A stretch of DNA of 36,474 bases. It comes from a virus. Position numbers and translations under genes: made by a program. The notes beneath the pieces are model-generated. The model was given only the letters and a program-made list of their open reading frames with translations, was not told the origin of the DNA and did no database searches. Positions within the stretch are counted from its first letter, which is position 1. Every line of letters starts with the position of its first letter. The stretch spans positions 1 through 36,474 of the IMG/VR virus record IMGVR_UViG_3300037461_000275. The stretch is one strand, 5' to 3'. Positions 4,682-32,126 of the stretch are shown here, piece after piece.

Positions 4682-4777
4682 ATGAACGAACGCAACGAGA
4701 ACAGTTATCTGTTTTACGCAATCCTCGTCGCCCTGCTTTTTCTTGCCGGGATCCTGAGGGGATGGTGGGCAGAGTAA
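4682..4777 (+). CDS. 31-aa single-TM micropeptide (MNERNENSYLFYAILVALLFLAGILRGWWAE)
   Basis: Hand translation. The stop TAA abuts the integrase ATG (TAAATG). Paralogous to the 27-aa ORF at 24513..24596. Weak RBS. Confidence 0.45.
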   Translation: MNERNENSYLFYAILVALLFLAGILRGWWAE

Positions 4778-7206: not shown

Positions 7207-7210
7207 TTCA

Positions 7211-7417: not shown

Positions 7418-7431
7418 TTGCCATCCCCCTT

Positions 7432-14763: not shown

Positions 14764-15200
14764 GGGCGTATCCTCGCATACATGATATAGTCCTCACCGT
14801 CAGGCCCGAAGGCCCGCAGCGTGGCCTCCGCGTCCAGCCCGCAGAGCTCCGCAAACCGCCGCGCCGTTTCGTCCCCCGCCCGGACACAGGCTTGCACCCG
14901 GCGCAGCCTTGCGCCCCGGACGGCCGCCCTTGACGCCTTGCACACAGCCAGCGGAAACTCTTTTGCCCTGGCCGAGACAACGGACCAGGCCTCCCCCGTC
15001 CCCTCCCACAACTTCACGACGCCGCCGAACGCCAGGACGTCCCCGTCGTCGGCTATAACGGACCAGGCCTCCCCCGCCGCCCGGAAGCCGGCCAGGATTG
15101 CCCGGTAATCCACCGAAAACAGGTCGTGGTATGTCGGGATCCGCGTGTCCCCCATCCGGTCGTAATGCTCGATCTCAAAAGGCACAATGCGCGTCGTCAT
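14760..15200 (-). CDS. GNAT-like acetyltransferase (tentative)
   Basis: ATG at 15200 (MTTRIVPFE), ATGA-coupled to the methyltransferase gene. C-terminal RRVQACVRAGDETARRFAELCGLDAEATLRAFGPDGEDYIMY resembles GNAT motif B. Motif A is not clear. Confidence 0.55.
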   Translation of the reverse strand: MTTRIVPFEIEHYDRMGDTRIPTYHDLFSVDYRAILAGFRAAGEAWSVIADDGDVLAFGGVVKLWEGTGEAWSVVSARAKEFPLAVCKASRAAVRGARLRRVQACVRAGDETARRFAELCGLDAEATLRAFGPDGEDYIMYARIRP

Positions 15201-15784
15201 CGAAGCGACTCCCTGCAGACGTAAAGATACCTGGTTGCAATCTCGTGGCTGTCGATTGTTTCCACCTGGGCAAAATACCTTGCCAGCTCCTCCCCCCAGC
15301 GTTCCCGGTCCCATTGGACCAGGTTGCACTCATGGCCGGCGCGAGGGTCTTTCCGATGGTAGACTTGCACGAACAGATTGCGGCACGTCCGGGCAATATG
15401 TCCCAGCGTGGCGTCCATGCGCGGCTCCGGGATCGTCATTAGAACCTCCATGCAGTACCCCCAGGGCGCATGCGGAAAGTCCGCCGGCAGATCCCAAAGC
15501 GACGCCAGCGTAAACGTCAGCCCCCGGCCGACCAAGGCCCGGGCCTCGTCCTCCAGGGCGTTTTCGGCAATGTCCACCATGTTCACCAAAAAGCCCTGGT
15601 TAAACAGCGCGACGGCGGCCCGCCCGGTCCCGGATCCGTAGTCGTTGATCACATAGCCACCGCCCCGGGCGTACTGCAGAAAACGAGGCACGATCCGCAG
15701 CCCCGGCGACCCCTGGCGATAATTGCCGTGGTCCCATACCATTTCAAACACTTCTTTCTGTTGTGCGCTGTCCCTGTCAATCAT
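15197..15784 (-). CDS. Class I SAM-dependent methyltransferase (copy 1)
   Basis: Motif I VINDYGSGTGRAAVAL, motif II LVNMVDIAENA. Paralogous in layout to 23963..24508. Confidence 0.8.
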   Translation of the reverse strand: MIDRDSAQQKEVFEMVWDHGNYRQGSPGLRIVPRFLQYARGGGYVINDYGSGTGRAAVALFNQGFLVNMVDIAENALEDEARALVGRGLTFTLASLWDLPADFPHAPWGYCMEVLMTIPEPRMDATLGHIARTCRNLFVQVYHRKDPRAGHECNLVQWDRERWGEELARYFAQVETIDSHEIATRYLYVCRESLR

Positions 15785-16022: not shown

Positions 16023-18029
16023 TCACAGCTCCAGATACAGGTTATCATTCAGCCGCTTGAGCAGCCGGCCCCTTGTGGACATGACGATTTCCGGCGAAAG
16101 AAGGTCGTGCGCGGCGTCCTGGACGGCCAGCGTATGCGCCTGGGTTAAGACCGGCGACTCGCTGGCCAGCGCATGCGCGGCGTTATTCACGCTCAGAACC
16201 AGAGTCAGGCCGACATTCTCCGACGAAAGCCCATGCAGCGCGTCGGCGACGGCCAGGTAATGCGCCTGTGTCAGCACGACGCCGTCGGATCCGAGCGCAT
16301 GAACCGCGTCGTCGACGGTCAGCGTTTTATAAGGCATGACCAGGTCGATATTGTCGGACGTCAGCGCGTGCGCCGCGTCGACCACGGCCAGGACGTGAGC
16401 CTGGGCAAGAACCGGACTCCCGGACGAGAGCTCATGGACGGATCCGGCCACAGCCAGGATCTTTTGCTCGACCAGCTCCGGAGCCCCGGAAGATAGCGCG
16501 TGGGCCGCGTCAGCCGGCGACAATGTTTTGTGCTCTGTCAAGACGGCATTTTCGGAGTTGAGGTCATGGGCCGCGTTGTTTACAGCCAGCGTATGTACCT
16601 GGGATAGCGCCGGCGCCTGGGACGACAGGCCATGGACCGCCGGATTGACGGCGAGCGCATGGGCCTGGGTCAGAACCGGGGCGGCAGAGGCCAGGGCGTG
16701 CGAAGCGTCCGCCGGGACAAGCACATGCGCCTGGGTCAGGGTCACGTTCGCGGAAGCCAGGGCATGCGCCGCGCCGCCCACAGCCAAGGTCTTGTGTTCG
16801 ACGAGAGCGGGCGCCGCCGAATTCAGATCGTGCGCCGCATTTGCCGGCGACAATGTTTTGTTTTCGACCAGGGCAGGAGCGGCCGATGAAAGCGCATGAG
16901 CGGCTCCAGCCACCGTTAAAGTCTTGTGTTCGACCAGGGCAATGTTTCCCGAAGCGAGCGCATGAGCGGCGTTGGCCACCGACAATGTCTTGTGTTCAGT
17001 AAGCGCCGGCGCCGCCGATGAAAGCGCATGAGAGCAATCCGCGACGGCCAGGATAATGTTCCGGACCAGGACCGGAGACTCCGAAGCCAGGGCGTGAGAA
17101 GCGTCGGCGACGACCAGCGTTACCTCCCCGACCTCCCATGCCGCAACTGCGTCACTAAACCACACGGCGTCATCCGTGTTTTTGAAATAGGACGCCGGCA
17201 TGGGCGTAGAGACGGCAGGGCTTTCCGAAGCCAAGGCGTGAGAGGCGTCGGCGACGACCAGCGTTATGTTCTGGACAAGATCCGTGTTTCCCGAGGCGAG
17301 GGCATGAGACGCATTTGCAACGGTCAGCTGATACCAGTCCGCCCATGAAATAATGGCCCCACCGAGCGCACCATGGCCTCCCCTGCGGGATGTGGCATTA
17401 TTGCGTCCGCCACCACCACCACCCCCGCCATAAACCACACCGTTTGCGCCGTTGGCGTTTCTGGCCCCGCCAGCCCCGCCATTGCCTCCTTGATTGGCCC
17501 CGGCTGCCCCCGCTTGTGCGGTTGCATTTGCGCCTGGATTAGCGTTCCCGGCCCCGGCTCCACCACCACCGCCCACGTTTGCGGACGCACCGCCCCGATA
17601 CCCTGCACCACCAGCGTAAGAGGTAATCCCCGCGTCCGTGTTGGCCGCTCCACCAGCACCACCGACCCCGTTAGCTCCGGAGATCGACACTCGCCCAAAG
17701 ATACCGCCATTGGCCCCGACAATCGTGCTTGTGTTTCCGCCGCTATTATTATTGAAAGTTGACCCTGCACCGTTTGTCCCGTTGGCCCCTGTGCCGCCCG
17801 CACCGTTTGCCCCGATAACAACAGCATGGGTGTTACCCGCAACGAGTCCGGTAACAGTCCTGCGTGCATACGCACCACCACCTCCGCCACCACCTGTCCC
17901 ATTTGTGGCATTGATGCCGCCGCCACCGCCAGCACCGGAACCCCATATCTGTATGGTGACCTCTGTTGCCGGGCCGACAGTTGCCGGGACTGTCCAAGTC
18001 CCGTTGGCGTTGAAGGTGTTACTTCCCAT
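16023..18029 (-). CDS. Tail fibre-like protein: N-terminal Gly-rich domain plus about 18 tandem 22-aa repeats
   Basis: 668 aa. The N-terminus WTVPATVGPATEVTIQIWGSGAGGGGG... has long GGxGG runs up to about residue 225. Then come repeats of consensus AHALxSxxPxLxxxHxLxVxxA. Confidence 0.85.
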   Translation of the reverse strand: MGSNTFNANGTWTVPATVGPATEVTIQIWGSGAGGGGGINATNGTGGGGGGGAYARRTVTGLVAGNTHAVVIGANGAGGTGANGTNGAGSTFNNNSGGNTSTIVGANGGIFGRVSISGANGVGGAGGAANTDAGITSYAGGAGYRGGASANVGGGGGAGAGNANPGANATAQAGAAGANQGGNGGAGGARNANGANGVVYGGGGGGGGRNNATSRRGGHGALGGAIISWADWYQLTVANASHALASGNTDLVQNITLVVADASHALASESPAVSTPMPASYFKNTDDAVWFSDAVAAWEVGEVTLVVADASHALASESPVLVRNIILAVADCSHALSSAAPALTEHKTLSVANAAHALASGNIALVEHKTLTVAGAAHALSSAAPALVENKTLSPANAAHDLNSAAPALVEHKTLAVGGAAHALASANVTLTQAHVLVPADASHALASAAPVLTQAHALAVNPAVHGLSSQAPALSQVHTLAVNNAAHDLNSENAVLTEHKTLSPADAAHALSSGAPELVEQKILAVAGSVHELSSGSPVLAQAHVLAVVDAAHALTSDNIDLVMPYKTLTVDDAVHALGSDGVVLTQAHYLAVADALHGLSSENVGLTLVLSVNNAAHALASESPVLTQAHTLAVQDAAHDLLSPEIVMSTRGRLLKRLNDNLYLEL
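16080..17327 (-). repeat. About 18 tandem 66-bp (22-codon) repeats inside the fibre gene
   Basis: Counted units start SHALASGNTDLVQNITLVVADA, SHALASESPVLVRNIILAVADC, SHALSSAAPALTEHKTLSVANA, AHALASGNIALVEHKTLTVAGA and so on. One unit carries a ~26-aa insertion (STPMPASYFKNTDDAVWFSDAVAAWE). Confidence 0.8.
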
Positions 18030-18762
18030 TTACTCCCCACATCTTGAGGATTTCGATCATCCCCGGCTGGCGCACCATGACACCGTTAATGTCCTGATCC
18101 CACCCCATCAGCTTCTGCTCCGTGGTGCAGGTGTATTGATGCCAGAAGTAAGTGCCTGTGTCCCCTATCTTTTCCATGATGCTGAATAGCGTCACAAAAT
18201 GCAGCCCGAACCGGGCAATGTTTCTGGACAGCATGTAGTCGTCAATCAGATGGTCTCTTGTGATGACCGTGTTCAATTCGTTTTGGATCGGGAAGATGTT
18301 TTCAAGGGCCTCCTCGTAAGGAATGTCGAGGGGATGCCATAAGTCAAGACACCAGTCAGAGGCCACCGTGAACCAGTTGCAGGAGCCTATATGCCGCCCG
18401 TCCCTGCGGAAATAATTGTCATACCGCCAGCGGTTGTTTGCCATGTCCTTCCCGGTATGAAGCACCTGGTCCTTTGTGAGAAATTCGGTCACGTCAAACA
18501 GGTCCGGGTGGATCAGGGCGTCGGAATCAATGTAGATGTTCCAATCGGCCCCGATCTCCCGCGCCAGGTCATATATCTGCATCTTCTCGTAAACAGGCGC
18601 ATAGTCCGGGGATTTCCGCTCCGTGATCATGTGAATATTGGCTTTGATCTTATGGGCGTACCGCTTTATGAGCGGATATGTGAGCGCCGTGATCTCCGGC
18701 GCGAAATTATCGACGTTGAGCAGAAAGATCGCTTTTTTCATGGTCATGGCTCCATTTTCCAT
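18019..18762 (-). CDS. GT-A type glycosyltransferase (DxD)
   Basis: NIYIDSDALIHPDLFD is a DxD motif in a nucleotide-sugar transferase-like context. The start is ambiguous (ATG 18762 or MKKAIFLL at 18741). The 3' end overlaps the fibre gene start by 11 nt. Lower GC than its flanks. Confidence 0.65.
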   Translation of the reverse strand: MENGAMTMKKAIFLLNVDNFAPEITALTYPLIKRYAHKIKANIHMITERKSPDYAPVYEKMQIYDLAREIGADWNIYIDSDALIHPDLFDVTEFLTKDQVLHTGKDMANNRWRYDNYFRRDGRHIGSCNWFTVASDWCLDLWHPLDIPYEEALENIFPIQNELNTVITRDHLIDDYMLSRNIARFGLHFVTLFSIMEKIGDTGTYFWHQYTCTTEQKLMGWDQDINGVMVRQPGMIEILKMWGVNGK

Positions 18763-20973: not shown

Positions 20974-23409
20974 TCAGCGGTCCTCCGTCGTGAAGCGCGG
21001 CATGATGTTCAGTATGGTCATGGGCAGCGGTTTGTCCTGGCGGATCAGGATCCGCCCGGTTGCCGCATGGCCGCCGCGGAAAGGCTGCATGATATCGCCG
21101 GAATACAGCGGCGCCGGCTCGCCAATCGGCGTTTCCGTGTCGCGGAAGATGATCGCGTCCAGGCGGTCCGCATCCGGGCCGATCTTGCCCTGGGCCGTTC
21201 GATGGAACCGTATCACCGCCTCATGGATCCGCTTCTTTTTGCCCTGGGCCGTCCCTTCCGCCGCGCCGCCCTCCAGATCCATCGGCGACAGGTCAGAGAC
21301 ATAGGGCAGCCCGACATGGATCACCGACGCGGCCGTGTCCAGCGTGATTGCCCCGTCGGACGTGACCACCTGGTCCGGGACCGTCGCGCCGTCGGCCAGG
21401 ATCGACACCGTCTCCCCCGCCAGATGGTCCAGGCCGGAAAGGACGGTCTCCGGCGCCCCCTCGTACGACAGGCCGCAATCCACAAAAAAGGCGTCCTCCT
21501 GGTCCCCGAAATCAAAGGGCACCATCATTTCAATATAGCGGACGGCGCTGCCGTTGATCGTACGCTTGACGGACAGATAAAGATCATCCTGGGATTCCCC
21601 TGGGATCACCGCGCATGATTCGATCACGCCGTCCGTATCATGGAGCGCCCAAGCAATGACTTCCTGCTCCGGGGAGTAGGTCATGGAAAGCAGCGCGCCG
21701 TCATCCCGGACCATCCAGACAATCGGATACGGCGAGGCCATGTAAGCCCACTCGACGATCCCGCCGTCGGCAATATGTTCGGCCAGGATCGACACGTCGC
21801 GGCTTTTATAGCGATCATTCAGCAGATCGTACTGCATGGACAGGACGCGTTCGCCGTAGTTTGTCGGCTTGCCCAGGCGTTGCACATACAGCACCGACGA
21901 AAGAAAATTGACCGCCTGGATATCCGCCGATCCGTCAGGCGTTTGCGCCGCCACGCGGGCATTGTCGGCCCGCAGCGCCTCGGACGTGTTTTTCGGCCCG
22001 ATCGTCCAGGCCCCGGACACCGTCCCGATCGTCATGGTCTCCGTCGACGCCAGCCAGCGGATCGAATTGACTTTTTCCGCCTTGAGGCGGTATGTTTGCC
22101 CGTCGGCCGCCGTGTCCCCGGGCGCGAAATTCTCATAGTCCCCGACGACGGACCGCCACAGCATGAGCGGCTCGGATGCCGTCCCGGCCAGCCAAAGGGC
22201 CTGATCGTTGAACGTGATCGCTGCAGGATATCCGCGTTTGACCGAAAACGCGCCCTCCCGCCAGAACGGCGTCGGATCCGTCCCGGCCAGCTCCGTTTTG
22301 ACGGTTGCCGTGACCGAGGTTGACGTCGTGTATTCCGTGATCTCGACGTAACCCCAATCCTCGCCGCATTTTATCCGCCAGAAAGAGCCCTCATGCGCCT
22401 CCTCGAAGGTCGCCGCCGTGGCCGTCAGCGTGATGGTCCCCGTCCTGCCCGACGGCGTCAGCAGCGCCGGCGTCTCGATCTCGTAGATCTCCACCAGGTC
22501 GATGTACCAGGTCCCCGAGGATCCCGTCGCGTTTGTGAAGGCCACATAGGCGCCGGTCCCGCCGGCCGCCTCCTGCCAGAAATACTCGTACTCCGTCCAA
22601 TCGTTGTAAGGGACGGATGAAATGCTTTTTGTCGCGTTGTAACCGCTGTCGTCCCCCTTGCGGATCGATATCTTAAAGTTTTGTGTCGCCGTGTAGACGC
22701 GCACGCGCACCCGGTAGAGCTTGCCCGTTACCGTTGTGAAGGCCGTGGTCTTGACCCCTTCGCCGTCGGCATCAATGGTGAACTTGCGGGAATAGGCGCC
22801 ATGATAGGCCTGTTCATTGCTGCGCGCCTGGGTCGTCGGCGTCCCGACGGACGCCCAGCCGGTGTTTTCCTCGCAATCCCCGTCCGTACAGAGATTTCCG
22901 CCGACGTCGTCGTAAACATTCTCGTCCCGATAGGGGCCGTCCAAAAAGACAATCGGCGCGATCGTCCAATCGTCATGATCCGCGCGCGTCAGCTTTTGCG
23001 GCGGATAGTCCGGATGGACCAGGTAAAGCGTGTCGGCGTCCTGGACATATTTGATTTTTGGCAGATCCGCGACGGCATACGGCGTCGCCAGCTCGTACGG
23101 GTCCCCGGAATCGTCGACGACCAGGGCGCCGTCCTTGTAGACGCGCATATACTCGTCGCCAAACTCCAGGATATAGGCCTGGGCGACGTTGAACTCAAAC
23201 GGGAAAAGCCGGACGCGGTCCGCCGGCGTCTTTGTCTCCCCGATGAAATAAGTCCCTGGCCGGCGCTCCGCCGGGCCATGCACCAGCGGGACGAAATTTT
23301 TGCACGTCCGGCATGCGTTCGGATACTTCTCCAGGTCGACGCGCCCGTACAGGCGCGGGCTCCACTCGCCGCTGTTAAAGCTCGTTATGATCGGGGATAC
23401 CCTGGGCAT
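20974..23409 (-). CDS. Tail tubular protein B / nozzle (T7 gp12-like), 811 aa
   Basis: N-terminal ITSFNSGEWSPRLYGRVDLEKYPNACRTCKNFVPLVHGPAERRPG parallels T7 gp12 IKNLKGGISQQPDILRYPDQGSRQVNGWSSETEGLQKRPP. Follows the gp11-like gene with a TAATG overlap. Confidence 0.7.
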   Translation of the reverse strand: MPRVSPIITSFNSGEWSPRLYGRVDLEKYPNACRTCKNFVPLVHGPAERRPGTYFIGETKTPADRVRLFPFEFNVAQAYILEFGDEYMRVYKDGALVVDDSGDPYELATPYAVADLPKIKYVQDADTLYLVHPDYPPQKLTRADHDDWTIAPIVFLDGPYRDENVYDDVGGNLCTDGDCEENTGWASVGTPTTQARSNEQAYHGAYSRKFTIDADGEGVKTTAFTTVTGKLYRVRVRVYTATQNFKISIRKGDDSGYNATKSISSVPYNDWTEYEYFWQEAAGGTGAYVAFTNATGSSGTWYIDLVEIYEIETPALLTPSGRTGTITLTATAATFEEAHEGSFWRIKCGEDWGYVEITEYTTSTSVTATVKTELAGTDPTPFWREGAFSVKRGYPAAITFNDQALWLAGTASEPLMLWRSVVGDYENFAPGDTAADGQTYRLKAEKVNSIRWLASTETMTIGTVSGAWTIGPKNTSEALRADNARVAAQTPDGSADIQAVNFLSSVLYVQRLGKPTNYGERVLSMQYDLLNDRYKSRDVSILAEHIADGGIVEWAYMASPYPIVWMVRDDGALLSMTYSPEQEVIAWALHDTDGVIESCAVIPGESQDDLYLSVKRTINGSAVRYIEMMVPFDFGDQEDAFFVDCGLSYEGAPETVLSGLDHLAGETVSILADGATVPDQVVTSDGAITLDTAASVIHVGLPYVSDLSPMDLEGGAAEGTAQGKKKRIHEAVIRFHRTAQGKIGPDADRLDAIIFRDTETPIGEPAPLYSGDIMQPFRGGHAATGRILIRQDKPLPMTILNIMPRFTTEDR

Positions 23410-23963
23410 TAGTACCTCGCATCAAGATAGGTTGTTACCTCCGGATCATCCGGCGTCCCCTCCTGGGCATCCGTACAGGCCGCCTCGGCCAGCCGGAGCT
23501 GCCACAGCTTTATCATGGCTTCCGCCAGCGTCTTTGAATTCGCCATCGGATAGGCCAGGTCCCCCGCGATCCTGGCCGCCAGCGCGCCGACCAGCAGCGG
23601 ATCCATTTCCGGGACCGTGATCCGCGCGATATAGAGGATCTTCGCCGTCGCCTCGTTGCAAAGCAGCTTGACGCCCTCGACTTTGAACCGGATACCGTTG
23701 TCGCTCATGCGCACCACGCGCAGACAGTCCGAAGGAAGGCTGTAAACATAGGAAAACTCGAAGGCCGGCGTTTCGGATACCTGGGAGAGCGACGCCCGCT
23801 TTGTCGCACAATTCCAGTTGTACGACCGCAGCGTCTCATCAATGGCCGGTTGAAGAAAAACGCTGCATTTTCGCGCCGCCTCGTTTGCCCCGCTGAGGCT
23901 TGTAATCGTTTCATGGCCGACCAGCGTCAGCGCCATGTTGCATACGTCAATGCTTGATGCCAT
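23409..23963 (-). CDS. Tail tubular protein A / adaptor (T7 gp11-like), 184 aa
   Basis: ATG at 23963 (MASSIDVCNMALTLVGHETITSL...LRSYNWNCATKRASL...YSLPSDCLRV) with RBS GGGAGGGGG. The pattern resembles gp11 VNDILASIGEPPVSTL...SRGWTFN. Confidence 0.7.
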   Translation of the reverse strand: MASSIDVCNMALTLVGHETITSLSGANEAARKCSVFLQPAIDETLRSYNWNCATKRASLSQVSETPAFEFSYVYSLPSDCLRVVRMSDNGIRFKVEGVKLLCNEATAKILYIARITVPEMDPLLVGALAARIAGDLAYPMANSKTLAEAMIKLWQLRLAEAACTDAQEGTPDDPEVTTYLDARY

Positions 23964-24508
23964 TACCCCCTCCCGATGAGCAGATATGTATTGTCGGACT
24001 CGTTGAGGCTTTCGACCTCGCGCCAATGCCGGCCGATCTCCTGGATCCACCACTCCCGGGGGTGCACACTCAGGTGCAGGACCTCCCCGATATGGCGTCC
24101 CCATCCGTCCGGGACGCCGGAAATGGAGAAGAAGCAGCGGCCCGTTTTCGCACGCATGGCCGCCAGGGACGGCGCAATCCATCCGGCCGGCAGATGCTCC
24201 ATGACGTCGGAGCAAAAGCCCCACTCGCACGCCGGCAGATCCCCGGGGAGCTCATGCAGCGCGCAGCAATAAAAGCGGTCGCGCAGGGCCTCGACGTGCA
24301 TGGCGTTTGCCGCGATATCGACGAGATAAACGCCATAGCCGGCCGCCTGGAGCTTTGCCGCCGCGTCGCCCGTTCCGCAGCCGAAATCGATGACGCGGTC
24401 GCCGGACCACAGATACCGGTTTATCAGCAGATTGACGTACGAGGCGCCAGGCCCCGGGCTGTACCCCGGGACGGCGTGCATGCGTTCGTATTTTTCGCGC
24501 TCCTCCAT
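23963..24508 (-). CDS. Class I SAM-dependent methyltransferase (copy 2)
   Basis: Motif I VIDFGCGTGDAAAKL, motif II YLVDIAANA. The N-terminal PGYSPGPG is comparable with YRQGSPG of copy 1. Confidence 0.8.
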   Translation of the reverse strand: MEEREKYERMHAVPGYSPGPGASYVNLLINRYLWSGDRVIDFGCGTGDAAAKLQAAGYGVYLVDIAANAMHVEALRDRFYCCALHELPGDLPACEWGFCSDVMEHLPAGWIAPSLAAMRAKTGRCFFSISGVPDGWGRHIGEVLHLSVHPREWWIQEIGRHWREVESLNESDNTYLLIGRG

Positions 24509-24512
24509 GAAA

Positions 24513-24596
24513 TCAGCCCCACCAGCCTTTAAGAAACGCCGCTGCCAGGATCAGCATGATCAGCAGCGCATAAAAGTCGTCTCCGTGTCGTTTCAT
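24513..24596 (-). CDS. 27-aa single-TM micropeptide (MKRHGDDFYALLIMLILAAAFLKGWWG)
   Basis: Hand translation. ATGA-coupled to the upstream transferase gene. Stop lies 4 nt before the methyltransferase ATG. Paralogue of 4682..4777. Confidence 0.45.
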   Translation of the reverse strand: MKRHGDDFYALLIMLILAAAFLKGWWG

Positions 24597-25255
24597 CGTC
24601 CCATCCATTTTTTTGTCGGTTTGCCCAGCAGCTCGCGCGTCCATCCGGAGAGGGACCGGACGCGGTCCTGGAACCACAGCGCTTTCGCCGTCTCCCACTC
24701 GCGCCGGGGAGATCCCGCAAAGAGCTTTGTCGCGGTCCCCGCCGGGTCGTAAAAATGCCCCTTGTTGTCCAGCGGCACGCCGGCCAGGATGATCCGGTCG
24801 TACCCCAGGCCCAGCCCGACGGCCACGGCAAACAGCGACGACGTGCCGGCCAGGCAGCAGCCGATCATCGGCCAGATATAGTCGCAATTCATAACCTGGG
24901 GATCCAGGCTTGCCCGGTAGGCATGACAGGTGACGTGGCTATTGTCGCAGCCGTATTGCTGGCGGAGCTTGCGCCATAGCGGCGGCTCCTCCGCATGCAG
25001 CGACGCCCCATGATGGACGCGCTTTTTCCAATGCAGGATCATGTTATTGACGGCGATCACCGCCGCGCCGTTTGCCTCCGGATCGAAGGCCTTGAGATCC
25101 CGCCACACGGTCCGGCCGGTCGCCATGACGACGGCCAGGCCCTTAAAGTTGCCGGCGCACCGGGGCGGGGCCGTACCCCGCCCCCGGATGCCGTTGATCT
25201 CCCACTCGCCAGGAGCGGGAACGTTGCTTAAACCTGTCAACATTTTACGCGCCAT
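24593..25255 (-). CDS. Rossmann-like glycosyl/nonulosonate-transferase-like protein (Cst-II / Maf / DUF115-like architecture; tentative)
   Basis: LAVVMATGRTVWRDL ... AAVIAVNNM ... LAGTSSLFAVAVGLGLGYDRIILAGVPLDNKGHFYD mirrors Cst-II IIAGNGPSL ... FRCN ... ITSGVYMCAVAIALGYKEIYLSGIDFY. The ATG at 25255 follows AAAGGGG (the track start at 25261 is a TTG). Confidence 0.55.
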   Translation of the reverse strand: MARKMLTGLSNVPAPGEWEINGIRGRGTAPPRCAGNFKGLAVVMATGRTVWRDLKAFDPEANGAAVIAVNNMILHWKKRVHHGASLHAEEPPLWRKLRQQYGCDNSHVTCHAYRASLDPQVMNCDYIWPMIGCCLAGTSSLFAVAVGLGLGYDRIILAGVPLDNKGHFYDPAGTATKLFAGSPRREWETAKALWFQDRVRSLSGWTRELLGKPTKKWMGR

Positions 25256-25267
25256 GCACAAACCCCT

Positions 25268-25702
25268 TTAGTTCGGGCAGAGCAGGAGCAGCTGCCATTG
25301 GATGGTCCCGGACAGGGTCTCCGTCGCCGTCGTGATGAGAATGTCCGTGTCCGCGGTAAACTTATAGCCCTGGCCGTGTGAGCCGACCGTCCCGATCCGG
25401 CTGATCGCCGTATTCTGGCCGGCCGTGGTAAACACGGTGGCCGCCAGGAAGCGGTCCGCGTCGCCGGAGTCGCCCACTTCGAGCGTCCCCGCGCTGGACA
25501 GATCGTCCGCCTGGAGCCAGCCGCCCAGGAACACCTCGCCCTTGCGGGCCTTGCCCGCGACGATCGTTGATCCGGCCACCAGGGAAGCCGCCTCGTAACT
25601 GTCGCAGATCCCGCGCACCTTGCCCCGCCATTCAGCCCCCAGCAGGGTCCTCATGGACGGATCGGCCGCGATTGCCGCATTAACGCCTTTTTCTGCACTC
25701 AT
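25268..25702 (-). CDS. Capsid decoration / cement-like protein (by position), 144 aa
   Basis: Immediately downstream of the MCP. Beta-rich and Gly-rich. RBS GAAGGAGG. Confidence 0.6.
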   Translation of the reverse strand: MSAEKGVNAAIAADPSMRTLLGAEWRGKVRGICDSYEAASLVAGSTIVAGKARKGEVFLGGWLQADDLSSAGTLEVGDSGDADRFLAATVFTTAGQNTAISRIGTVGSHGQGYKFTADTDILITTATETLSGTIQWQLLLLCPN

Positions 25703-25772: not shown

Positions 25773-26636
25773 TTAACCCTCCCAGGCCTGGACCTCGACA
25801 ACGCCCTTTTCATCCATCCGGGTCGCGCCGATATTCATCCCGCAATAAACCTGGGTCGAATAGTTTTTGTCCGCGCGCTCGGATACCCTTGTGATGACGT
25901 CCGTCCCGACGCCCACCAGGATTGAATTCTTGCTGTACGCCAGGCAGGACCGCACGCTGGACGCCACCGCCAGGCGCTCCGTCCGGATGAACTTGAAGCC
26001 CATAAACGTGTCAAGCTGCCCCTGGACCAGGGCCTTGACCGTGTTGTAATCGGCCGACTTGACCTCCGTCACCTGGAGCAGGACGGCCAGCTGTTTCGCG
26101 TTGAGGATAAAGTATCGCTCCTCGTCGGGATCGTTTTCCGCCGCGTCCAGGATCTCCTTTGCGCTTGCCAGCTTTGCCAGCGACAGACCGGCGGATCCGT
26201 GGGCAATGCGATATGACGACGTGTCAAACGTGTAGCTTGACGATCCGTCGACGCCCCCGTATGCCGTTGCCAGGGCCGCCAAAATGATCGCGTCGTCGAT
26301 GGCGCGATTCATTGCCGCCACGGCATTGACGACGTACTTGCTGGTGGGATCCGTGATCAGCGCCGCCCGGTCGAAAATGTCGATGAGGTCCGCCCAATCG
26401 TACGGGCTCATGGACACCCGGCGCCGGACGTGCGGCGTGGAGACGAGCGGCGTATCGCCGTGGCGCGTGGTGCGCTTGACGGCCGCCGTCGCATCGATTT
26501 GGTCGAAAAATCCGTACTCGCCCTGGACGCTTTCCTCCCGGACAGCCCTCCTCAGACGAGACGCCTTCTGCTGCTGCAGCAGTACGATATTGTCGTTATA
26601 CTGCCGCACCATTGCGGTTGTAATTTCAAAACTCAT
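25773..26636 (-). CDS. Major capsid protein
   Basis: 287 aa from the ATG at 26636 (RBS GGAGGT). Its position after the scaffold and its composition and length fit HK97-fold podovirus MCPs. Confidence 0.8.
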   Translation of the reverse strand: MSFEITTAMVRQYNDNIVLLQQQKASRLRRAVREESVQGEYGFFDQIDATAAVKRTTRHGDTPLVSTPHVRRRVSMSPYDWADLIDIFDRAALITDPTSKYVVNAVAAMNRAIDDAIILAALATAYGGVDGSSSYTFDTSSYRIAHGSAGLSLAKLASAKEILDAAENDPDEERYFILNAKQLAVLLQVTEVKSADYNTVKALVQGQLDTFMGFKFIRTERLAVASSVRSCLAYSKNSILVGVGTDVITRVSERADKNYSTQVYCGMNIGATRMDEKGVVEVQAWEG

Positions 26637-26780
26637 GGCAACCTCCAAAATTTGTTGACTTTACAATGGGTTATTCGCACTCGTTCTGCGATTGCCCGTT
26701 GCCGGATCGCTTGCCTTCGGCCGCTTTCCGGATCTCCAATTCATGAAGATTGCCCGGTTTTGTGTTGCCCCCGGTCGATT

Positions 26781-26844: not shown

Positions 26845-27690
26845 TTACTTCTGTGCGCGCATGATGATCCCGTTTAGCTGCAGGACCGTCTCCAGCGCCT
26901 CCGCATGCCGCGGATGTTTCTTGTCAAAATAGGCCGCGTTGAGCGGATTGTCCTTGTTTGTCATAATGTCCATTTTCTTCTGCTGGGCCTGTTCCGGAGA
27001 CGACGCCAGGTCGGCCGCGCCGTCGCCTTTGTGCAGCCCGGCCTCCCGGAGCTGCTGCCCGATCTTCGCCAGCAGGACCGTCAGGGCCGGCGACCGTCCC
27101 GCCAGCTCCATGATCCCCTGCTTGTGCTCGTCGTTCGCGCCGAACAGGCCGACAACCTTGCCGGCCATTTCCCCGGCCTTGTCAGCCTCCGCGCCGAATG
27201 TCTCCTTGAGGAGCTTCTGCCCATCCTCCGCGGCCTTTTTTTCGGCCTCCAGCAGGGCGCCGTACTCGGCCGCGACGCTTTCATTGTAGTAGCTGAAAAG
27301 GCCCTGGGCCTGTTTCGCGGTCAGGCCCAGCTTGTGGGCCGCCTCCCGGTAAGTCTTTTCCGCGTTTTCGTTCCAGGACAGGCCATCCGGCAGCTGGCCC
27401 TTGTCCAGCGTGTATTTATCCGGCGCCTCCGGCCGCCCCAGCTTGTTGTAAACCGCCTCCCAATTCTCCGGCGTGTCCAGCGCGCCGGCCGGCAGCACGA
27501 TCTTTTCCCCGCCGACGAGCTTCTGCGCGTTGACGTAGGACTTCGCCAGGCCGCCCAGGTCCTTGATCGGCGCCAGCGTCGGATCGTCTTTGAGCTCCGG
27601 CGGCACAAACTCCCGCCAATTTTCCGCGTTAAGTGTTACGGTCGTCTGATTGCCCGCCCCCGGCGTGTTCGGATCAGTACCATCACTCAT
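26845..27690 (-). CDS. Scaffolding protein
   Basis: Lies between the portal block and the MCP. Acidic and helical, with motifs such as LGLTAKQAQGLFSYYNESVAAEYGALLEAEKKAAEDGQKLLKE typical of phage scaffolds. Confidence 0.75.
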   Translation of the reverse strand: MSDGTDPNTPGAGNQTTVTLNAENWREFVPPELKDDPTLAPIKDLGGLAKSYVNAQKLVGGEKIVLPAGALDTPENWEAVYNKLGRPEAPDKYTLDKGQLPDGLSWNENAEKTYREAAHKLGLTAKQAQGLFSYYNESVAAEYGALLEAEKKAAEDGQKLLKETFGAEADKAGEMAGKVVGLFGANDEHKQGIMELAGRSPALTVLLAKIGQQLREAGLHKGDGAADLASSPEQAQQKKMDIMTNKDNPLNAAYFDKKHPRHAEALETVLQLNGIIMRAQK

Positions 27691-27979
27691 TGCCTGTTAC
27701 CTCCTTGATTGAATTCATGTTGCCGTCCCGGCGCACCATGCCCAGGATATACAAAACGACGTTGCGGCTCCCCTCGTTGACCAGGGCAACCTCCACTTTG
27801 TCCACCGCCGGATCGAACGTCGGCCCGACGAAACAAAACTGATTGGCCAGGTCGTCCAGGACGATCTTTCCGTATTCCGTCCCGAACACTTGCCGGTATG
27901 CCGCGAGGATCTGTTTCTCCCGGCGCTGCGCGTCCCGTACATCGACGAGCCTGGAGTATATGCGCTTGAAGATCTCCAT
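27683..27979 (-). CDS. Small conserved protein downstream of the portal (Bbp19-like, tentative)
   Basis: 98 aa. FGTEYGKIVLDDLANQFCF...EGSRNVVLYILGM resembles the small ORF that follows the portal in BPP-1-like podoviruses. TAATG overlap with the portal gene. Confidence 0.6.
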   Translation of the reverse strand: MEIFKRIYSRLVDVRDAQRREKQILAAYRQVFGTEYGKIVLDDLANQFCFVGPTFDPAVDKVEVALVNEGSRNVVLYILGMVRRDGNMNSIKEVTGNE

Positions 27980-29619
27980 TATTTAGCCCCTCCGCCCATC
28001 ATGTCCAGCATGGAGCCCTTTTCGATTGCCTTGCCCGGCGGGACAGCCTTGACCATTTCGCCCAGGGCCGCGACTTGCTGCTGCTGCTGCTGGATCTCCG
28101 CGCGCTGCTGCCTTTTTTCCAGAACGCGCTCATCCGAGGCGATAAAGTCCTCAGAGACGCCCAGGCGGCGCAGGATCCCGACGGCCGCTTTGTCGGTTTC
28201 CACCACGTCCACAACCTCCGGCGCAAAGGTGGACATGCCGCCGACGATCTCGAGCCCCTGGGTTATGGCCTGGACCTCGCCGAACCGCATGGCCATTGCC
28301 AGCCGGCCGGTATATTGGATGGAAAGACCGGATCCGACCAGCGCGTCCGGGACCTGGCCCATGTAGCCCAGCCGGAACATGATCCAGAACGTCCGCTCCA
28401 GCAGCCGGCCCAGGTACTCCTTTTGGATCCGCCCCAGGGCCGCCCCCAGGTGCAGTTGCGCCTGTTCCGCGCGTTTGGAGATCTCATAGGCCGTACGTTG
28501 TGGATCGTCCGCACCCAGCCAGGCGAAAAAGTCATGGAAGAAATGCGCCGCGATCACTTGCCGGCGGTGCTCCTCGTATTCCAGGGCCAGCCGGTATTTG
28601 TCCGGCGTGTAGAGCGGCTCCGGCTTTGCCCCCGGCTTCGAGTATGTTATTCCTCCCGGCGTTTGGCGGATCGTTGACAGCGCCATTTCCATCGGCGCGA
28701 CCAGCGGCGGCCGGACGATAAGCTGCTGGGCCTTGATATCCTCCTCGCTCATCTTGTTGAGCATCTTGATATCCGCCAGCGCCCGCATGCCTGGGGAGTA
28801 GCCGTATTCCTCCTCGTCGCGCGGCTCCCAGCGCGGGACGGCGTACGGAAACTCCTCGTAACCCGACTCCTCCAGGATGTTGCCGCCGTCACGTTCGACG
28901 TAAGTTGACACATAGGGCATATTCAGCGCGCCGACCTTGCGCCGCATTTCACGGATCCGCCGGTCGAAAAACCATTGCTGGTCCTCGCGCTCGTACGCGG
29001 CATGGATGATATCAACCTCATGCGCCGGCGTCCTTTCGGCGATCCTCTGGATCCTGTCCGACGCCGTCTTTGGCCATTTCTTGACGACCCTCCGGGCGCT
29101 CATGCGCTCCTGCCGGAAAACAACATCGACCATCCGGTCCTGGTCCTCCATGATGGCGCAGCGCGCCGGCGAGAAGGCCGACAGCGCCAGGACGTTCTTT
29201 TTGCCCTCGCCGATATACAGCGGCGCCGTCCCGGCCCAGCCCAGGTTATGAAACACCTGGGGCGCGGTCATGCCGTTATTGGACTCGTTGAGGCAATCGT
29301 GCATGCGCTCCGTACAATCGCGCAGCCAGCGCTTAACGTCATTGCGCCGGCCGACGGTCTTGTCTTTTGCCTGGAGCTCAAACCATTGCGCCGCCGCGCT
29401 CATGACGTTCCCGTACATGCCGGACGCAAACGTCGTGAGGCACTTCATCCCCCAGGAGTCGTATATTTGCCGGCTGTGCTTTGACCCCAGGGTTTGATGC
29501 GTGACCACGTTCGCGCCGGCCGGATTGATGAACTCCGCGACCTCCTGGATATGCGTCTTGTATGTCCCCTTGCGGCCGTCCAGCTCGTCGTAGCGCTTGA
29601 CCAGGTCCATGCCGTTCAT
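27979..29619 (-). CDS. Portal (head-to-tail connector, T7 gp8-like)
   Basis: 546 aa. YEEFPYAVPRWEPRDEEEYGYSPGMRALADIKMLNKMSEEDIKAQ parallels T7 gp8 YIPIRMVRLDGESYGRSYIEEYLGDLRSLENLQEAIVK. Gln-rich C-terminus as in gp8. Confidence 0.9.
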   Translation of the reverse strand: MNGMDLVKRYDELDGRKGTYKTHIQEVAEFINPAGANVVTHQTLGSKHSRQIYDSWGMKCLTTFASGMYGNVMSAAAQWFELQAKDKTVGRRNDVKRWLRDCTERMHDCLNESNNGMTAPQVFHNLGWAGTAPLYIGEGKKNVLALSAFSPARCAIMEDQDRMVDVVFRQERMSARRVVKKWPKTASDRIQRIAERTPAHEVDIIHAAYEREDQQWFFDRRIREMRRKVGALNMPYVSTYVERDGGNILEESGYEEFPYAVPRWEPRDEEEYGYSPGMRALADIKMLNKMSEEDIKAQQLIVRPPLVAPMEMALSTIRQTPGGITYSKPGAKPEPLYTPDKYRLALEYEEHRRQVIAAHFFHDFFAWLGADDPQRTAYEISKRAEQAQLHLGAALGRIQKEYLGRLLERTFWIMFRLGYMGQVPDALVGSGLSIQYTGRLAMAMRFGEVQAITQGLEIVGGMSTFAPEVVDVVETDKAAVGILRRLGVSEDFIASDERVLEKRQQRAEIQQQQQQVAALGEMVKAVPPGKAIEKGSMLDMMGGGAK

Positions 29620-31663: not shown

Positions 31664-31679
31664 CTTCGCCGGCGAAAGA

Positions 31680-32126
31680 TCAACCTTTGCCGCGTCGCTC
31701 TTTTTTGGTTTTGCTTTCAATCTGCTTTTGGATCTCCCTGCTGGCTTGCAGCAACAGCTCCCGCTCCTCCGGATCAATGTCATTGACCGACAGCGGCGTC
31801 GTGAAGGCCAGCTCATGCTTTTCGCTGGGATACAGCCCCAGGAGCTTCTGAGCGTCCATCCTGGCCCGTTGCCGGACGTCCCAGGCGATCACATCGAAGC
31901 CGACGACCGACTCCTCGTAGCCGTCCGCAATGATGGTTATCCGCGGATTTTGTGCATGGATGCCTCCCTTGATCTTGACGATCTTCGTCTCGTTTGCCGC
32001 GAGCTCCAGCTTGAGGTCCTGGGCAAGGCGTTCGATCGTAATGCCTTGTGTGGCCAGGGCCTCAAACATCGGAGCCGCGAGATATTTAAGCGCTGAATCA
32101 TCCATTTGTGGACGATTAAAGCACAT
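31680..32126 (-). CDS. terS: Terminase small subunit (candidate)
   Basis: Lies directly upstream of terL. C-terminal RQRARMDAQKLLGLYPSEKHE resembles the conserved TerS helix. The start is ATG 32126 or 32105. Confidence 0.6.
   Translation of the reverse strand: MCFNRPQMDDSALKYLAAPMFEALATQGITIERLAQDLKLELAANETKIVKIKGGIHAQNPRITIIADGYEESVVGFDVIAWDVRQRARMDAQKLLGLYPSEKHELAFTTPLSVNDIDPEERELLLQASREIQKQIESKTKKERRGKG

What the first reader, a model, noticed from the sequence alone, without database searches (positions are those of the whole stretch)
23963..25255. Sialyltransferase/Maf-like transferase and a SAM methyltransferase inserted between the capsid genes and the tail adaptor
In T7-order modules the MCP is followed directly by gp11/gp12-type genes. 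Here three extra cistrons sit between the decoration-like gene and the gp11-like gene. The first is a 220-aa protein whose layout (VVMATGRTVW ... IAVNN ... GTSSLFAVAVGLGLGYDRIILAGVPLD..GHFYD) matches the Cst-II / Maf / DUF115 type of CMP-nonulosonate or related transferases. The second is the GWW micropeptide. The third is a class I SAM methyltransferase. Virion glycosylation by phage-encoded glycosyltransferases has been reported for mycobacteriophages. A nonulosonate-type, possibly methylated, modification of a podovirus capsid or tail would be new. A role in modifying host surface glycans is the alternative.
Basis: partly seen in the sequence, partly recalled or inferred. Interest (0 to 1): 0.62.

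Follow-up and report, generated by a model that had tools for sequence, protein, structure and literature searches.

The report
Sialyltransferase-like enzyme in phage head genes
A complete 36-kb temperate podovirus carries, between its capsid and tail-tube genes, a small uncharacterised enzyme with the fold of bacterial sialic-acid/Kdo-type sugar transferases plus a methyltransferase, which probably put a methylated acidic sugar on the virus particle, a kind of phage glycosylation not yet described in the literature.

Summary
On the minus strand, three tightly coupled cistrons lie between the decoration-like gene and the tail-tubular-A gene. They are a 220-aa protein "T" (24593-25255), a 27-aa membrane micropeptide (24513-24596) and a class I SAM methyltransferase, MT1 (23963-24508).

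T matches no Pfam, PHROG or NCBIfam model. Its AlphaFold model (pLDDT 94) is closest to Cst-II (GT42) and Maf (DUF115/MptE-like).

T belongs to a large unannotated phage family of 2,375 clusters at 50% identity, found in late morphogenesis modules. All 49 podovirus-type loci place it between the capsid and tubular genes.

Relatives are fused to GT2/TOD1 glycosyltransferase or methyltransferase domains. Their neighbours include acetyl-, sulfo- and methyltransferases. In one lineage a bona fide KdsB (CMP-Kdo synthetase) lies between two T paralogues.

Five prophage hosts lack NeuB but have KdsB, so Kdo is a likelier donor than a nonulosonate.

The same operon holds a second methyltransferase (15197-15784). 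It also holds a GT-A glycosyltransferase (18019-18762) whose best structural match is the chlorovirus capsid-glycosylating A64R.

The micropeptide is not conserved in relatives. Donor and acceptor are both inferred, not shown.

This scan has noted similar modules in at least 43 other genomes.

The parts
24593..25255 (-). T: 220-aa Cst-II/Maf (MptE-like) fold transferase, member of a large unannotated phage family
   Evidence: No Pfam/PHROG/NCBIfam hit. AF2 pLDDT 94. Foldseek: 1ro8 Cst-II E 1.5e-3 prob 1.00; 5mu5 Maf prob 0.99. BFVD: phage MptE-like proteins. Family size: 2,375 representatives. Conserved D53, N70, H82, H87, R98, H111, G137-T/S-S139, G159-x-P161-x-D163, S201-x-S203-G204-x-T206.
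24513..24596 (-). 27-aa hydrophobic micropeptide ORF (MKRHGDDFYALLIMLILAAAFLKGWWG), ATGA-coupled to T
   Evidence: Sequence. No counterpart in 86 related loci; only a paralogue in the window at about 4712-4768. Whether it is translated is unknown.
23963..24508 (-). MT1: class I SAM-dependent methyltransferase (181 aa)
   Evidence: PF13489 27.7 bits (cut-off 27), PF13649, PF08241. phrog_24759 E 5e-10. Profile against PDB methyltransferases E 2.9e-9. Motif I DFGCGTGDAA. Adjacent to T in 26 of 49 podovirus-type loci.
15197..15784 (-). MT2: paralogous class I SAM methyltransferase (195 aa), upstream of the internal-virion-protein genes
   Evidence: PF13649 E 1.3e-5. Same cluster as MT1. MT1 and MT2 types are fused into one 374-378-aa ORF in L014 and L020.
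18019..18762 (-). GT-A fold glycosyltransferase (247-aa ORF; the called gene probably starts at 18741, 240 aa) with invariant D79-x-D81
   Evidence: AF2 pLDDT 94.3. Foldseek top hits are PBCV-1 A64R capsid-glycosylating GT 2p73/2p72/2p6w (E 2e-6), then ColGalT1, b4GalT7, GTA/GTB and STIV A197. At least 1,902 homologues, many fused to Methyltransf_24. Lies in a low-GC patch (0.513).
25268..25702 (-). 144-aa decoration/cement-like protein, candidate acceptor
   Evidence: Conserved directly after the MCP in 32 loci and in Pelagibacter phage HTVC028P. No family hit. Acidic (pI 4.8), 18% Ser+Thr. Its role is inferred from position only.
25773..26648 (-). Major capsid protein, candidate acceptor
   Evidence: PF19821 E 2.8e-75; phrog_3437. 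About 50% identical to the MCPs of HTVC010P-type pelagiphages.
23409..23963 (-). Tail tubular protein A-like (gp11-like), downstream boundary of the insert
   Evidence: phrog_394 E 1.9e-50. TAATG overlap with MT1.

Best explanation
T is a minimal, soluble, nucleotide-sugar-dependent glycosyltransferase of the Cst-II/Maf (GT42 / MptE-like) fold class.

It is made late, from the same transcript as the head and tail proteins. Like Maf acting on flagellin, it works in the cytoplasm. It transfers an acidic ulosonic sugar from a CMP-activated donor onto Ser/Thr of a virion protein, most likely the capsid or its decoration protein.

This phage has no donor-synthesis genes. The most likely donor is therefore the host's CMP-Kdo. 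A host nonulosonate would serve if the unknown host makes one.

MT1, and probably its paralogue MT2, then methylate the sugar or the acceptor. The GT-A enzyme at 18019-18762 adds a second, neutral sugar. The predicted result is a small methylated glycan on the particle surface.

Shown here: the genes, their coupling, the folds, the family size, the conserved position, the fusions and the neighbours.

Inferred: that T is catalytically active, the donor, the acceptor, and the order of steps.
For: Fold:
- The AF2 model has pLDDT 94.
- Best PDB matches are Cst-II, Maf and SteA.
- BFVD matches include phage MptE-like proteins, viral sialyltransferases and a methyltransferase fusion.

Sequence:
- All nine PDB profile hits are GT42 sialyltransferases. 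They align T138-S139...G159...Y169 with Cst-II T131-S132...G152...Y162.
- PF01973 hits are below threshold in 10 of 53 members and in tandem-T proteins (27-31 bits).
- The residue pattern looks like an active site: D53 98%, N70 96%, S139 94%, G159 100%, P161 98%, D163 81%, and H82/H87/H111 87% each, in 126 representatives of 50%-identity clusters.
- The Ser-to-Asp spacing of 24 resembles the critical Ser...Asp/Asn spacing of 23 in CbMaf and GkMaf (bioRxiv 10.1101/2020.06.03.131540).

Context:
- 49 of 49 podovirus-type loci have T between the MCP and tubular genes.
- 22 of 37 other loci have T within 3 genes of portal, scaffold or MCP.
- Six of eight genome loci are recognisable prophage head/structural modules, often with 2-3 T paralogues; the two Mameliella loci could not be classified.

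Glycan guild:
- P0125 is T + GT2 + TOD1/MUCI70. P0153 is Methyltransf_24 + T.
- Neighbours include NeuD/PglD-type acetyltransferase, FkbM and other methyltransferases, two sulfotransferases, Anp1-like, GT2 and DegT aminotransferase.
- KdsB, above curated cut-offs, lies between two T paralogues in L081/L082.

Donor:
- NeuB is present in 0 of 5 prophage hosts and KdsB-type cytidylyltransferase in 5 of 5.
- Maf enzymes can transfer Kdo from the E. coli CMP-Kdo pool to Ser/Thr.

Same operon:
- MT1 and MT2 are present, and are fused in relatives.
- The GT-A enzyme is most like PBCV-1 A64R.

Precedent: mycobacteriophage capsid glycosylation (Freeman 2023, as cited in PMC11256854).
Against: - There are no biochemical or mass-spectrometry data for any member of the family.
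- T fails the curated thresholds of PF01973 and PF06002. TM-scores to Cst-II and Maf are only about 0.49.
- I could not superpose the structures, so the residue equivalences rest on a short profile alignment and on motif spacing.
- The Asp that follows Gly in the Cst-II G-I-D motif aligns with an invariant Pro in T.
- The window encodes no donor pathway and its host is unknown.
- The KdsB link comes from a distant lineage.
- A position in the head module fits a virion acceptor but does not prove one.
- MT1 is absent next to T in 23 of 49 loci, so the T-MT1 coupling is facultative.
- T is basic (pI 9.7). In this phage alone it is coupled to a membrane micropeptide, which would also suit an envelope target.
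Confidence: 0.55

Rival explanations
1. T, the GT-A enzyme and the methyltransferases modify host envelope glycans (LPS core, O-antigen or capsule) at the inner face of the membrane during late infection or in lysogens. The purpose could be to block superinfection or to stop progeny re-adsorbing to debris. Virion proteins are not the target.
For: - Cst-II itself sialylates lipooligosaccharide (hits).
- T is basic (pI 9.7).
- T is translationally coupled to a membrane micropeptide.
- CMP-Kdo is an LPS precursor.
Against: - Lysogenic-conversion glycan genes usually lie near att/int and are expressed from the prophage. T instead lies inside the late head-tail operon in 49 of 49 podovirus-type loci and beside portal or MCP genes in most others.
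- T has no transmembrane segment.
- The micropeptide is unique to this phage.
- The GT-A paralogue is most similar to a capsid-glycosylating viral enzyme.
Confidence: 0.2
2. T is not a glycosyltransferase. It is another nucleotide-dependent enzyme of the MptE-like fold, such as an ATP-dependent pyrophosphokinase or kinase, or a SteA-like regulator, acting on a small molecule or protein.
For: - PF01973 is named after the archaeal pterin pyrophosphokinase MptE.
- SteA, a cell-division regulator, is the third PDB hit.
- T is only the bare Rossmann-like core.
- The second acidic position of the G-x-D motif is Pro.
Against: - Fusions to GT2/TOD1 glycosyltransferase domains.
- Neighbours are KdsB, a NeuD-type acetyltransferase, a DegT aminotransferase, sulfotransferases and FkbM methyltransferases.
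- The best sequence and fold matches are CMP-sugar transferases.
Confidence: 0.08
3. T glycosylates phage DNA (a base hypermodification) just before packaging, and the methyltransferases act on DNA.
For: - T is expressed late, next to the packaging and head genes.
- Phage glycosyltransferases that hypermodify DNA exist (bioRxiv 10.1101/2023.12.21.572611, listed).
Against: - MT1 and MT2 match small-molecule/protein-type class I methyltransferases, not DNA methyltransferase families.
- No hydroxymethylase, TET-like or nucleotide-modifying gene turned up in the parts of the window scanned; the early and replication regions were not scanned.
- Ulosonic-acid DNA modification is unknown.
Confidence: 0.05
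4. T is a catalytically dead structural or assembly factor, a pseudo-enzyme that binds capsid or connector proteins.
For: - The head-module position is strictly conserved.
- No family threshold is passed.
Against: - Polar residues are near-invariant at the predicted nucleotide-binding loops across 126 representatives of 50%-identity clusters.
- T is accessory, being absent from cultured HTVC010P-type relatives.
- T is repeatedly fused or adjacent to active-looking sugar enzymes.
Confidence: 0.05

Closest known systems
Maf (motility accessory factor) flagellin O-glycosyltransferases, central Maf_flag10/DUF115 domain (PF01973), e.g. Magnetospirillum magneticum Maf (PDB 5MU5), Clostridium botulinum and Geobacillus kaustophilus Maf
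   Same: - Same fold class (Foldseek probability 0.99).
- A soluble cytoplasmic enzyme encoded next to the self-assembling structural protein it would modify.
- A conserved Ser followed about 23-24 residues later by an Asp.
- Often accompanied by methyltransferases.
- Maf enzymes can use CMP-Kdo.
   Different: - T is 170-220 aa, only the core domain, without Maf's N- and C-terminal domains.
- T fails the PF01973 threshold.
- T has its own C-terminal S-x-S-G-x-T-R-E-L-L-G signature.
- It is encoded by phages in head modules, not in flagellar loci.
- The acceptor is unknown.
Campylobacter jejuni Cst-II / Cst-I lipooligosaccharide sialyltransferases (CAZy GT42, PF06002; PDB 1RO7/1RO8, 2P2V)
   Same: - Best structural hit (E 1.5e-3, probability 1.00, TMq 0.49).
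- The only PDB sequence-profile hits. T's G-T-S...LAGVP...HFY motif aligns with Cst-II's T131-S132...SGID...Y162.
   Different: - 12% identity, and no PF06002 membership.
- Pro in place of the Asp of the G-I-D motif.
- No lid or membrane-association region.
- The catalytic His188 equivalent is not identified.
- The likely donor is Kdo rather than Neu5Ac.
Mycobacteriophage virion glycosylation (Che8, Rita; Freeman et al. 2023, Cell Host Microbe 31:1216, as cited in PMC11256854 and PMC12582341)
   Same: - Phage-encoded glycosyltransferases that decorate capsid proteins with glycans.
- Tailoring enzymes are encoded alongside them.
   Different: - In those phages the enzymes lie near the right genome end and the hosts are Actinobacteria.
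- Here the key enzyme has a sialyltransferase/Maf-like fold and lies inside the head-tail operon of a phage related to alphaproteobacterial podoviruses.
- An acidic ulosonic sugar is predicted here.
Chlorovirus PBCV-1 A64R, glycosyltransferase for the major capsid protein (PDB 2P6W/2P72/2P73)
   Same: Closest solved structure to the window's second transferase at 18019-18762: GT-A fold with a DxD motif, virus-encoded.
   Different: - 12-15% identity.
- Eukaryotic giant virus.
- Relates to the companion GT-A enzyme, not to T.

Membership tests
Pfam PF01973 MptE-like / Maf_flag10 (DUF115) | Score above the curated gathering threshold (34.6 bits) | tested here: not met
   No hit for T. No hit in a six-frame search of the window at E<=10. 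10 of 53 homologues hit weakly, best E 0.012. Tandem-T proteins score 27-31 bits.
Pfam PF01973 MptE-like / Maf_flag10 (DUF115) | Modified GT-A/Rossmann-like fold shared with Maf 5MU5 | tested here: met
   Foldseek 5mu5 E 4.8e-3, probability 0.99, TMq 0.48. BFVD phage 'MptE-like' proteins E 4e-6 to 7e-4.
Maf flagellin glycosyltransferases | Critical acid / Ser / acid(Asn) residues (MmMaf E324, D415; CbMaf D272, S334, D357) | tested here: inconclusive
   S139 is 94% conserved. D163 is 81% conserved, 24 residues later, against 23 in CbMaf/GkMaf. H87 (87%) and E/D89 (63%) lie upstream. Equivalence was judged by motif and spacing only, without superposition.
Maf flagellin glycosyltransferases | Multi-domain architecture (about 600 aa) with flanking domains, encoded in flagellar glycosylation loci | tested here: not met
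   T is a single 220-aa domain. It lies in phage head modules in all 49 podovirus-type loci, in most others and in the prophages.
CAZy GT42 (Cst-I/Cst-II, PF06002) | Sequence membership | tested here: not met
   No PF06002 hit for T. 1 of 53 homologues hits at E 0.24. PDB profile hits reach only E 0.13-0.18 over 43 residues.
CAZy GT42 (Cst-I/Cst-II, PF06002) | Fold, and the donor-site motif T131-S132 / G152 / Y162 | tested here: met
   1ro8_A is the top PDB fold hit. T138-S139, G159 and Y169 align to these positions. The roles of these Cst-II residues are from my own knowledge of the Cst-II structure papers and were not checked here.
CAZy GT42 (Cst-I/Cst-II, PF06002) | Catalytic base His188 and phosphate-binding Tyr156 | tested here: inconclusive
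   Three conserved His residues (H82, H87, H111; 87% each) and H167 (79%) are candidates. Tyr156 aligns with D163. No structural superposition was possible.
   None of the window proteins scanned matched a sugar-acid synthase; PF03102 was not searched in the window, and the early genes were not scanned. NeuB (PF03102) is present in 0 of 5 host genomes carrying T prophages, while the control genomes respond. The window's own host is unknown, so this is indirect.
Kdo (octulosonate) transferase-like activity | CMP-Kdo is available, and T is genetically linked to CMP-Kdo synthetase | tested here: met
   KdsB-type cytidylyltransferase is present in 5 of 5 hosts. A phage-encoded KdsB lies between two T paralogues in L081/L082: TIGR00466 206.9 bits against cut-off 155.2, NF003950 284 against 234. 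Enzyme activity itself cannot be tested with these tools.
Class I SAM-dependent methyltransferase (MT1, 23963-24508) | Rossmann methyltransferase domain with motif I (D/E-x-G-x-G-x-G) and an acidic post-I residue | tested here: met
   PF13489 27.7 bits against cut-off 27; PF08241 21.3 against 21.2. PDB methyltransferases E 2.9e-9. D41/G43/G45 and D64 are invariant. The substrate class is not determinable.
GT-A glycosyltransferase (18019-18762) | GT-A fold with a DxD metal/nucleotide-sugar motif | tested here: met
   97 PDB matches at E<=1e-3. The best 50 listed are almost all GT-A enzymes, and the top hits are PBCV-1 A64R. D79 and D81 are invariant in 38 homologues. No Pfam, PHROG or NCBIfam hit.

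The most novel reading that the evidence does not exclude
A very large, unannotated family of minimal Maf/Cst-II-like enzymes lets tailed phages of Gram-negative bacteria draw on the host's LPS precursor CMP-Kdo, or on phage-made ulosonic acids. With these they O-glycosylate their own capsid or decoration proteins with a methylated (elsewhere acetylated or sulfated) acidic sugar. This would be a widespread virion 'glycan coat' outside the Actinobacteria, and the first Kdo-type protein glycosylation with a natural biological role.
Probability: 0.3. Interest if true: 0.8.

Novelty: new variant of a known kind. Interest (0 to 1): 0.62.

Why it matters
Virion glycosylation by phage enzymes has been shown only for a few mycobacteriophages.

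If T-family enzymes put acidic, sialic-acid-like sugars on capsids, thousands of environmental and prophage-derived phages would carry a surface chemistry that nobody models. The family has 2,375 clusters at 50% identity.

That chemistry could affect particle stability, adsorption to mucus or debris, recognition by grazers or immune systems, and phage engineering.

It would also give a function to a large 'hypothetical protein' family that current annotation libraries miss. It would extend Maf-type protein O-glycosylation from flagella to viruses.

The idea can be tested directly in a cultured system: Paracoccus phage vB_PkoS_Pkon1, gene p38.

Tried and rejected
- **Direct family searches on T.** Pfam, PHROGs, NCBIfam and PDB phmmer gave nothing usable. 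Homologue profiles and structure prediction were needed.
- **Six-frame PF01973 search of the window.** No hit.
- **Genome-contig scans.** The first two attempts failed or found nothing. A sipho-type alignment then found 8 genome loci, 6 of them recognisable prophage structural modules.
- **Micropeptide as a conserved module member.** Rejected. tblastn finds no counterpart in 86 related loci. The closest relatives go straight from T to MT1 or to tubular A.
- **MT1 as an obligatory partner of T.** Rejected. It is adjacent in only 26 of 49 loci. A close MT1 homologue lies after the MCP in a phage without T (MW202621).
Not supported. It matches internal-virion-protein families phrog_4177 and phrog_308, and GNAT only at E 0.2.
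- **Lead from another window that the partner cement protein is basic and Ser/Thr-rich.** It does not apply here. The 144-aa protein is acidic (pI 4.8, 18% Ser+Thr).
- **Substrate class of MT1/MT2.** Could not be narrowed. The PDB profile hits are generic class I methyltransferases.
- **Virion proteomics for phage Pkon1.** The paper contains none.
- **My first greedy ORF caller.** It mis-called genes in this high-GC DNA. I replaced it with a conservation-weighted selection.
Full report
**1. What is there**

The window is a complete 36,474-bp virus record with direct terminal repeats. Its late genes are all on the minus strand.

Gene order:

| Gene | Coordinates | Evidence |
|---|---|---|
| Terminase | 29990-31816 | |
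| Portal | 27979-29619 | |
| Bbp19-like | 27683-27979 | |
| Scaffold-like | 26845-27690 | |
| Major capsid protein (MCP) | 25773-26648 | PF19821, E 2.8e-75 |
| 144-aa gene | 25268-25702 | |
| T (220 aa) | 24593-25255 | |
| 27-aa ORF | 24513-24596 | |
| MT1 | 23963-24508 | |
| Tail tubular A-like | 23409-23963 | phrog_394 |
| Tail tubular B-like | 20974-23409 | phrog_376 |

- The three extra cistrons are tightly coupled: ATGA overlap, a 4-nt gap, then a TAATG overlap.
- The region has no promoter-like or convincing terminator-like site.
- The capsid is about 50% identical to those of HTVC010P-type pelagiphages.
- HTVC010P itself has neither T nor a methyltransferase between its MCP and tubular A-like genes.
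- tblastn of T against 50,697 phage records finds only one hit, the siphovirus Paracoccus phage vB_PkoS_Pkon1.

**2. What T is**

T matches nothing in Pfam, PHROGs or NCBIfam, and nothing in the PDB by sequence. It does have homologues.

- 77 homologues came from the word-indexed search.
- 212 homologues are in IMG/VR.
- With a profile, 2,375 representatives of 50%-identity clusters match, 914 of them at E<=1e-30.

With a 53-sequence alignment, AlphaFold2 gives a confident model: pLDDT 94, pTM 0.90, a Rossmann-like alternating beta/alpha core.

Fold and profile matches:

- Foldseek against the PDB puts Campylobacter Cst-II first (1ro8, E 1.5e-3, probability 1.00, TMq 0.49).
- Magnetospirillum Maf is second (5mu5, probability 0.99) and SteA third. 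Human ST6GALNAC2 also appears.
- Against viral models, after its own relatives, T hits phage proteins named 'MptE-like', herpes/poxvirus sialyltransferases and a methyltransferase fusion protein.
- The family profile's only PDB sequence hits (E 0.13-1.7) are nine GT42 sialyltransferases. They align GTSGLfAV..ALGY.riiLAGvP...hfY with Cst-II TSGVYMCAVAIALGYKEIYLSGID...SSY.
- 10 of 53 members give weak PF01973 hits. Tandem-T proteins reach 27-31 bits against a threshold of 34.6.

T is therefore a distant, unannotated branch of the Cst-II/Maf/MptE-like fold class. It is not a member of either curated family.

Conservation across 126 representatives of 50%-identity clusters looks like an active site:

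| Residue | Conservation |
|---|---|
| D53 | 98% |
| N70 | 96% |
| H82, H87, H111 | 87% each |
| R98 | 87% |
| S139 | 94% |
| G159 | 100% |
| P161 | 98% |
| D163 | 81% |
| S201-x-S203-G204-x-T206 | 93-100% |

In Maf, an acidic residue, a conserved Ser and an Asp/Asn 23 residues after that Ser are required for activity (bioRxiv 10.1101/2020.06.03.131540). T has S139 and D163 at a spacing of 24. This equivalence is inferred from motifs, not from a superposition.

**3. Context in relatives**

I called genes in 86 related loci with a conservation-weighted procedure.

- All 49 podovirus-type loci have T between the MCP (plus a small decoration-like gene) and the tubular genes.
- In 22 of 37 other loci, T lies within three genes of portal, scaffold or MCP.
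- The rest sit beside apparent packaging genes (by size and position) or near tail genes.
- Of eight hits in species-representative genomes, six are recognisable prophage head or structural modules. Hosts include Pseudaminobacter, Shinella and Hyphomonas, plus Syntrophales and Dehalococcoidia MAGs. They often have two or three T paralogues.
- The two Mameliella loci could not be classified.
- An Azospirillum prophage and Paracoccus phage Pkon1 add two more alphaproteobacterial hosts.

T is accessory, because cultured relatives lack it. When present, it is always a late-module gene.

**4. The company T keeps**

Fusions:

- P0125 is T + Glycos_transf_2 + a TOD1/MUCI70 glycosyltransferase-like domain.
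- P0153 is Methyltransf_24 + T.

Non-structural neighbours within three genes of T:

- hexapeptide NeuD/PglD-type acetyltransferases (a cluster of 8)
- FkbM, Methyltransf_24 and Methyltransf_23 methyltransferases
- two sulfotransferases
- an Anp1-like GT-A
- GT2
- a DegT/PseC/LegC-like aminotransferase
- a transketolase

In L081/L082 the order is T(201 aa) - cytidylyltransferase - T(407 aa) - NeuD/PglB/VioB acetyltransferase - GT2 - aminotransferase, downstream of the MCP, cement protein and gpZ-like genes. The cytidylyltransferase passes the curated cut-offs for KdsB, the CMP-Kdo synthetase: TIGR00466 206.9 bits against 155.2, and NF003950 284 against 234.

This is the strongest single clue to the donor class.

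**5. Donor**

- The window proteins scanned include no sugar-acid synthase; PF03102 itself was not searched in the window, and the early genes were not scanned.
- In five host genomes carrying T prophages, NeuB-family synthases (needed for Neu5Ac, Pse and Leg) are absent. The result is 0 of 5, while the control rang in 9 of 14 reference genomes.
- KdsB-type cytidylyltransferases are present in 5 of 5 of those hosts.
- Maf enzymes expressed in E. coli transfer Kdo from the endogenous CMP-Kdo pool onto flagellin Ser/Thr.

The window's own host is unknown, so a host-made nonulosonate is not excluded.

**6. The methyltransferases and the second transferase**

- MT1 is a generic class I SAM methyltransferase. 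It scores PF13489 27.7 bits against 27, and its profile matches PDB methyltransferases at E 2.9e-9. Motif I is DFGCGTGDAA.
- A paralogue, MT2, lies at 15197-15784.
- In relatives the two types sit side by side (T-MT1-MT2-tubular A in L018/L019). In L014/L020 they are fused into one 374-378-aa protein. They probably act together.
- MT1 is adjacent to T in 26 of 49 loci, on either side. The closest relative, L007, has T alone.
- The substrate class cannot be read from the sequence.

- It has no family hit.
- It has at least 1,902 homologues, many fused to Methyltransf_24.
- It has an invariant D79-x-D81 and a model with pLDDT 94.3.
- Its best PDB matches are the three structures of PBCV-1 A64R, the glycosyltransferase for the chlorovirus major capsid protein (E 2e-6).
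- Next come collagen galactosyltransferase, b4GalT7, blood-group GTA/GTB, UGGT and STIV A197.

The late operon thus carries four glycan-type enzymes: T, GT-A, MT1 and MT2.

**7. The micropeptide**

The 27-aa ORF is hydrophobic and neatly coupled. It has no counterpart in any related locus. Its only match is a paralogue in the window near the integrase gene. It is not part of the conserved module, and I leave its reality and role open.

**8. Mechanism proposed**

T is made with the head proteins. It uses a CMP-activated ulosonic acid to O-glycosylate a virion protein in the cytoplasm, as Maf does for flagellin. The GT-A enzyme and the methyltransferases extend and cap the glycan.

- Shown: genes, coupling, folds, conservation, position, fusions and neighbours.
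- Inferred: activity, donor, acceptor and order of steps.
- Confidence about 0.55.

The main rival is modification of host envelope glycans (about 0.2). Cst-II's natural role, T's basic pI (9.7) and the coupled membrane peptide all fit that rival. The invariant head-module location argues against it. Other rivals are a non-glycosyl MptE-like activity, DNA modification and a pseudo-enzyme. Each is below 0.1, for the reasons given in the Rival explanations section.

**9. Comparison with what is known, and novelty**

- Capsid glycosylation by phage-encoded glycosyltransferases is established for cluster F mycobacteriophages (Freeman et al. 2023, cited in PMC11256854 and PMC12582341). In the cluster F1 phage Maravista the glycosyltransferase genes lie near the genome end.
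- Full-text searches found no paper describing DUF115-, Maf- or sialyltransferase-like enzymes in phage head modules, or ulosonic-acid-modified phage particles.
- This scan's own notes record similar head-module Maf/Cst-II-like genes, some fused to methyltransferases, in at least 43 other genomes. Those notes are unverified AI notes. They agree with what I found independently but are not evidence.

I class the finding as a new variant of a known kind: phage virion glycosylation using a Maf/Cst-II-like enzyme family that annotation libraries miss. This window is one ordinary member of that large family.

Noticed in passing
window 18019-18762 (-): Unannotated 240-247-aa protein in a low-GC patch (0.513). 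It is a GT-A glycosyltransferase (invariant DxD) whose best PDB match is PBCV-1 A64R, the capsid-glycosylating enzyme. Its family has at least 1,902 members, many fused to Methyltransf_24.
   Followed up: yes
window 15197-15784 (-); L014:5766-6902, L020:4544-5668: A second class I methyltransferase paralogue (MT2) lies upstream of the internal-virion-protein genes. MT1-type and MT2-type domains are fused into one ORF in two related phages.
   Followed up: partly
window 14218-15329 (-): The 189-aa and 181-aa proteins after MT2 are internal virion proteins (phrog_4177/308; phrog_418 and weak T7_gp14).
   Followed up: partly
L081:3143-7833 and L082:5773-9822: An uncultured phage head module carries two T paralogues flanking a bona fide KdsB (CMP-Kdo synthetase). 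A NeuD/PglB/VioB acetyltransferase, a GT2 and a short LegC/PseC-like aminotransferase follow. This looks like a possible phage pathway for a modified Kdo-type sugar.
   Followed up: partly
L088 (Pseudaminobacter salicylatoxidans DSM 6986 prophage), about 8001, 14441 and 16185: Three T-family paralogues and a hexapeptide acetyltransferase lie in one prophage structural module. The host genome has no NeuB-type synthase.
   Followed up: partly
window about 4712-4768 (+) and 24513-24596 (-): Two paralogous hydrophobic ...GWW micropeptide ORFs (10 of 19 identical), one next to the integrase region and one between T and MT1. Neither has a counterpart in related loci.
   Followed up: partly
window 19052-20005 (-): A 317-aa protein among the fibre genes has a weak Pgp3 C-terminal (TNF-like trimer) match (E 0.002, below cut-off). 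It may be a receptor-binding protein.
   Followed up: no
L096 (MW202621.1) 6983-7537: A close MT1 homologue (38% identity) lies directly after the major capsid gene of a siphovirus with no T homologue. This methyltransferase type can therefore be capsid-adjacent on its own.
   Followed up: no
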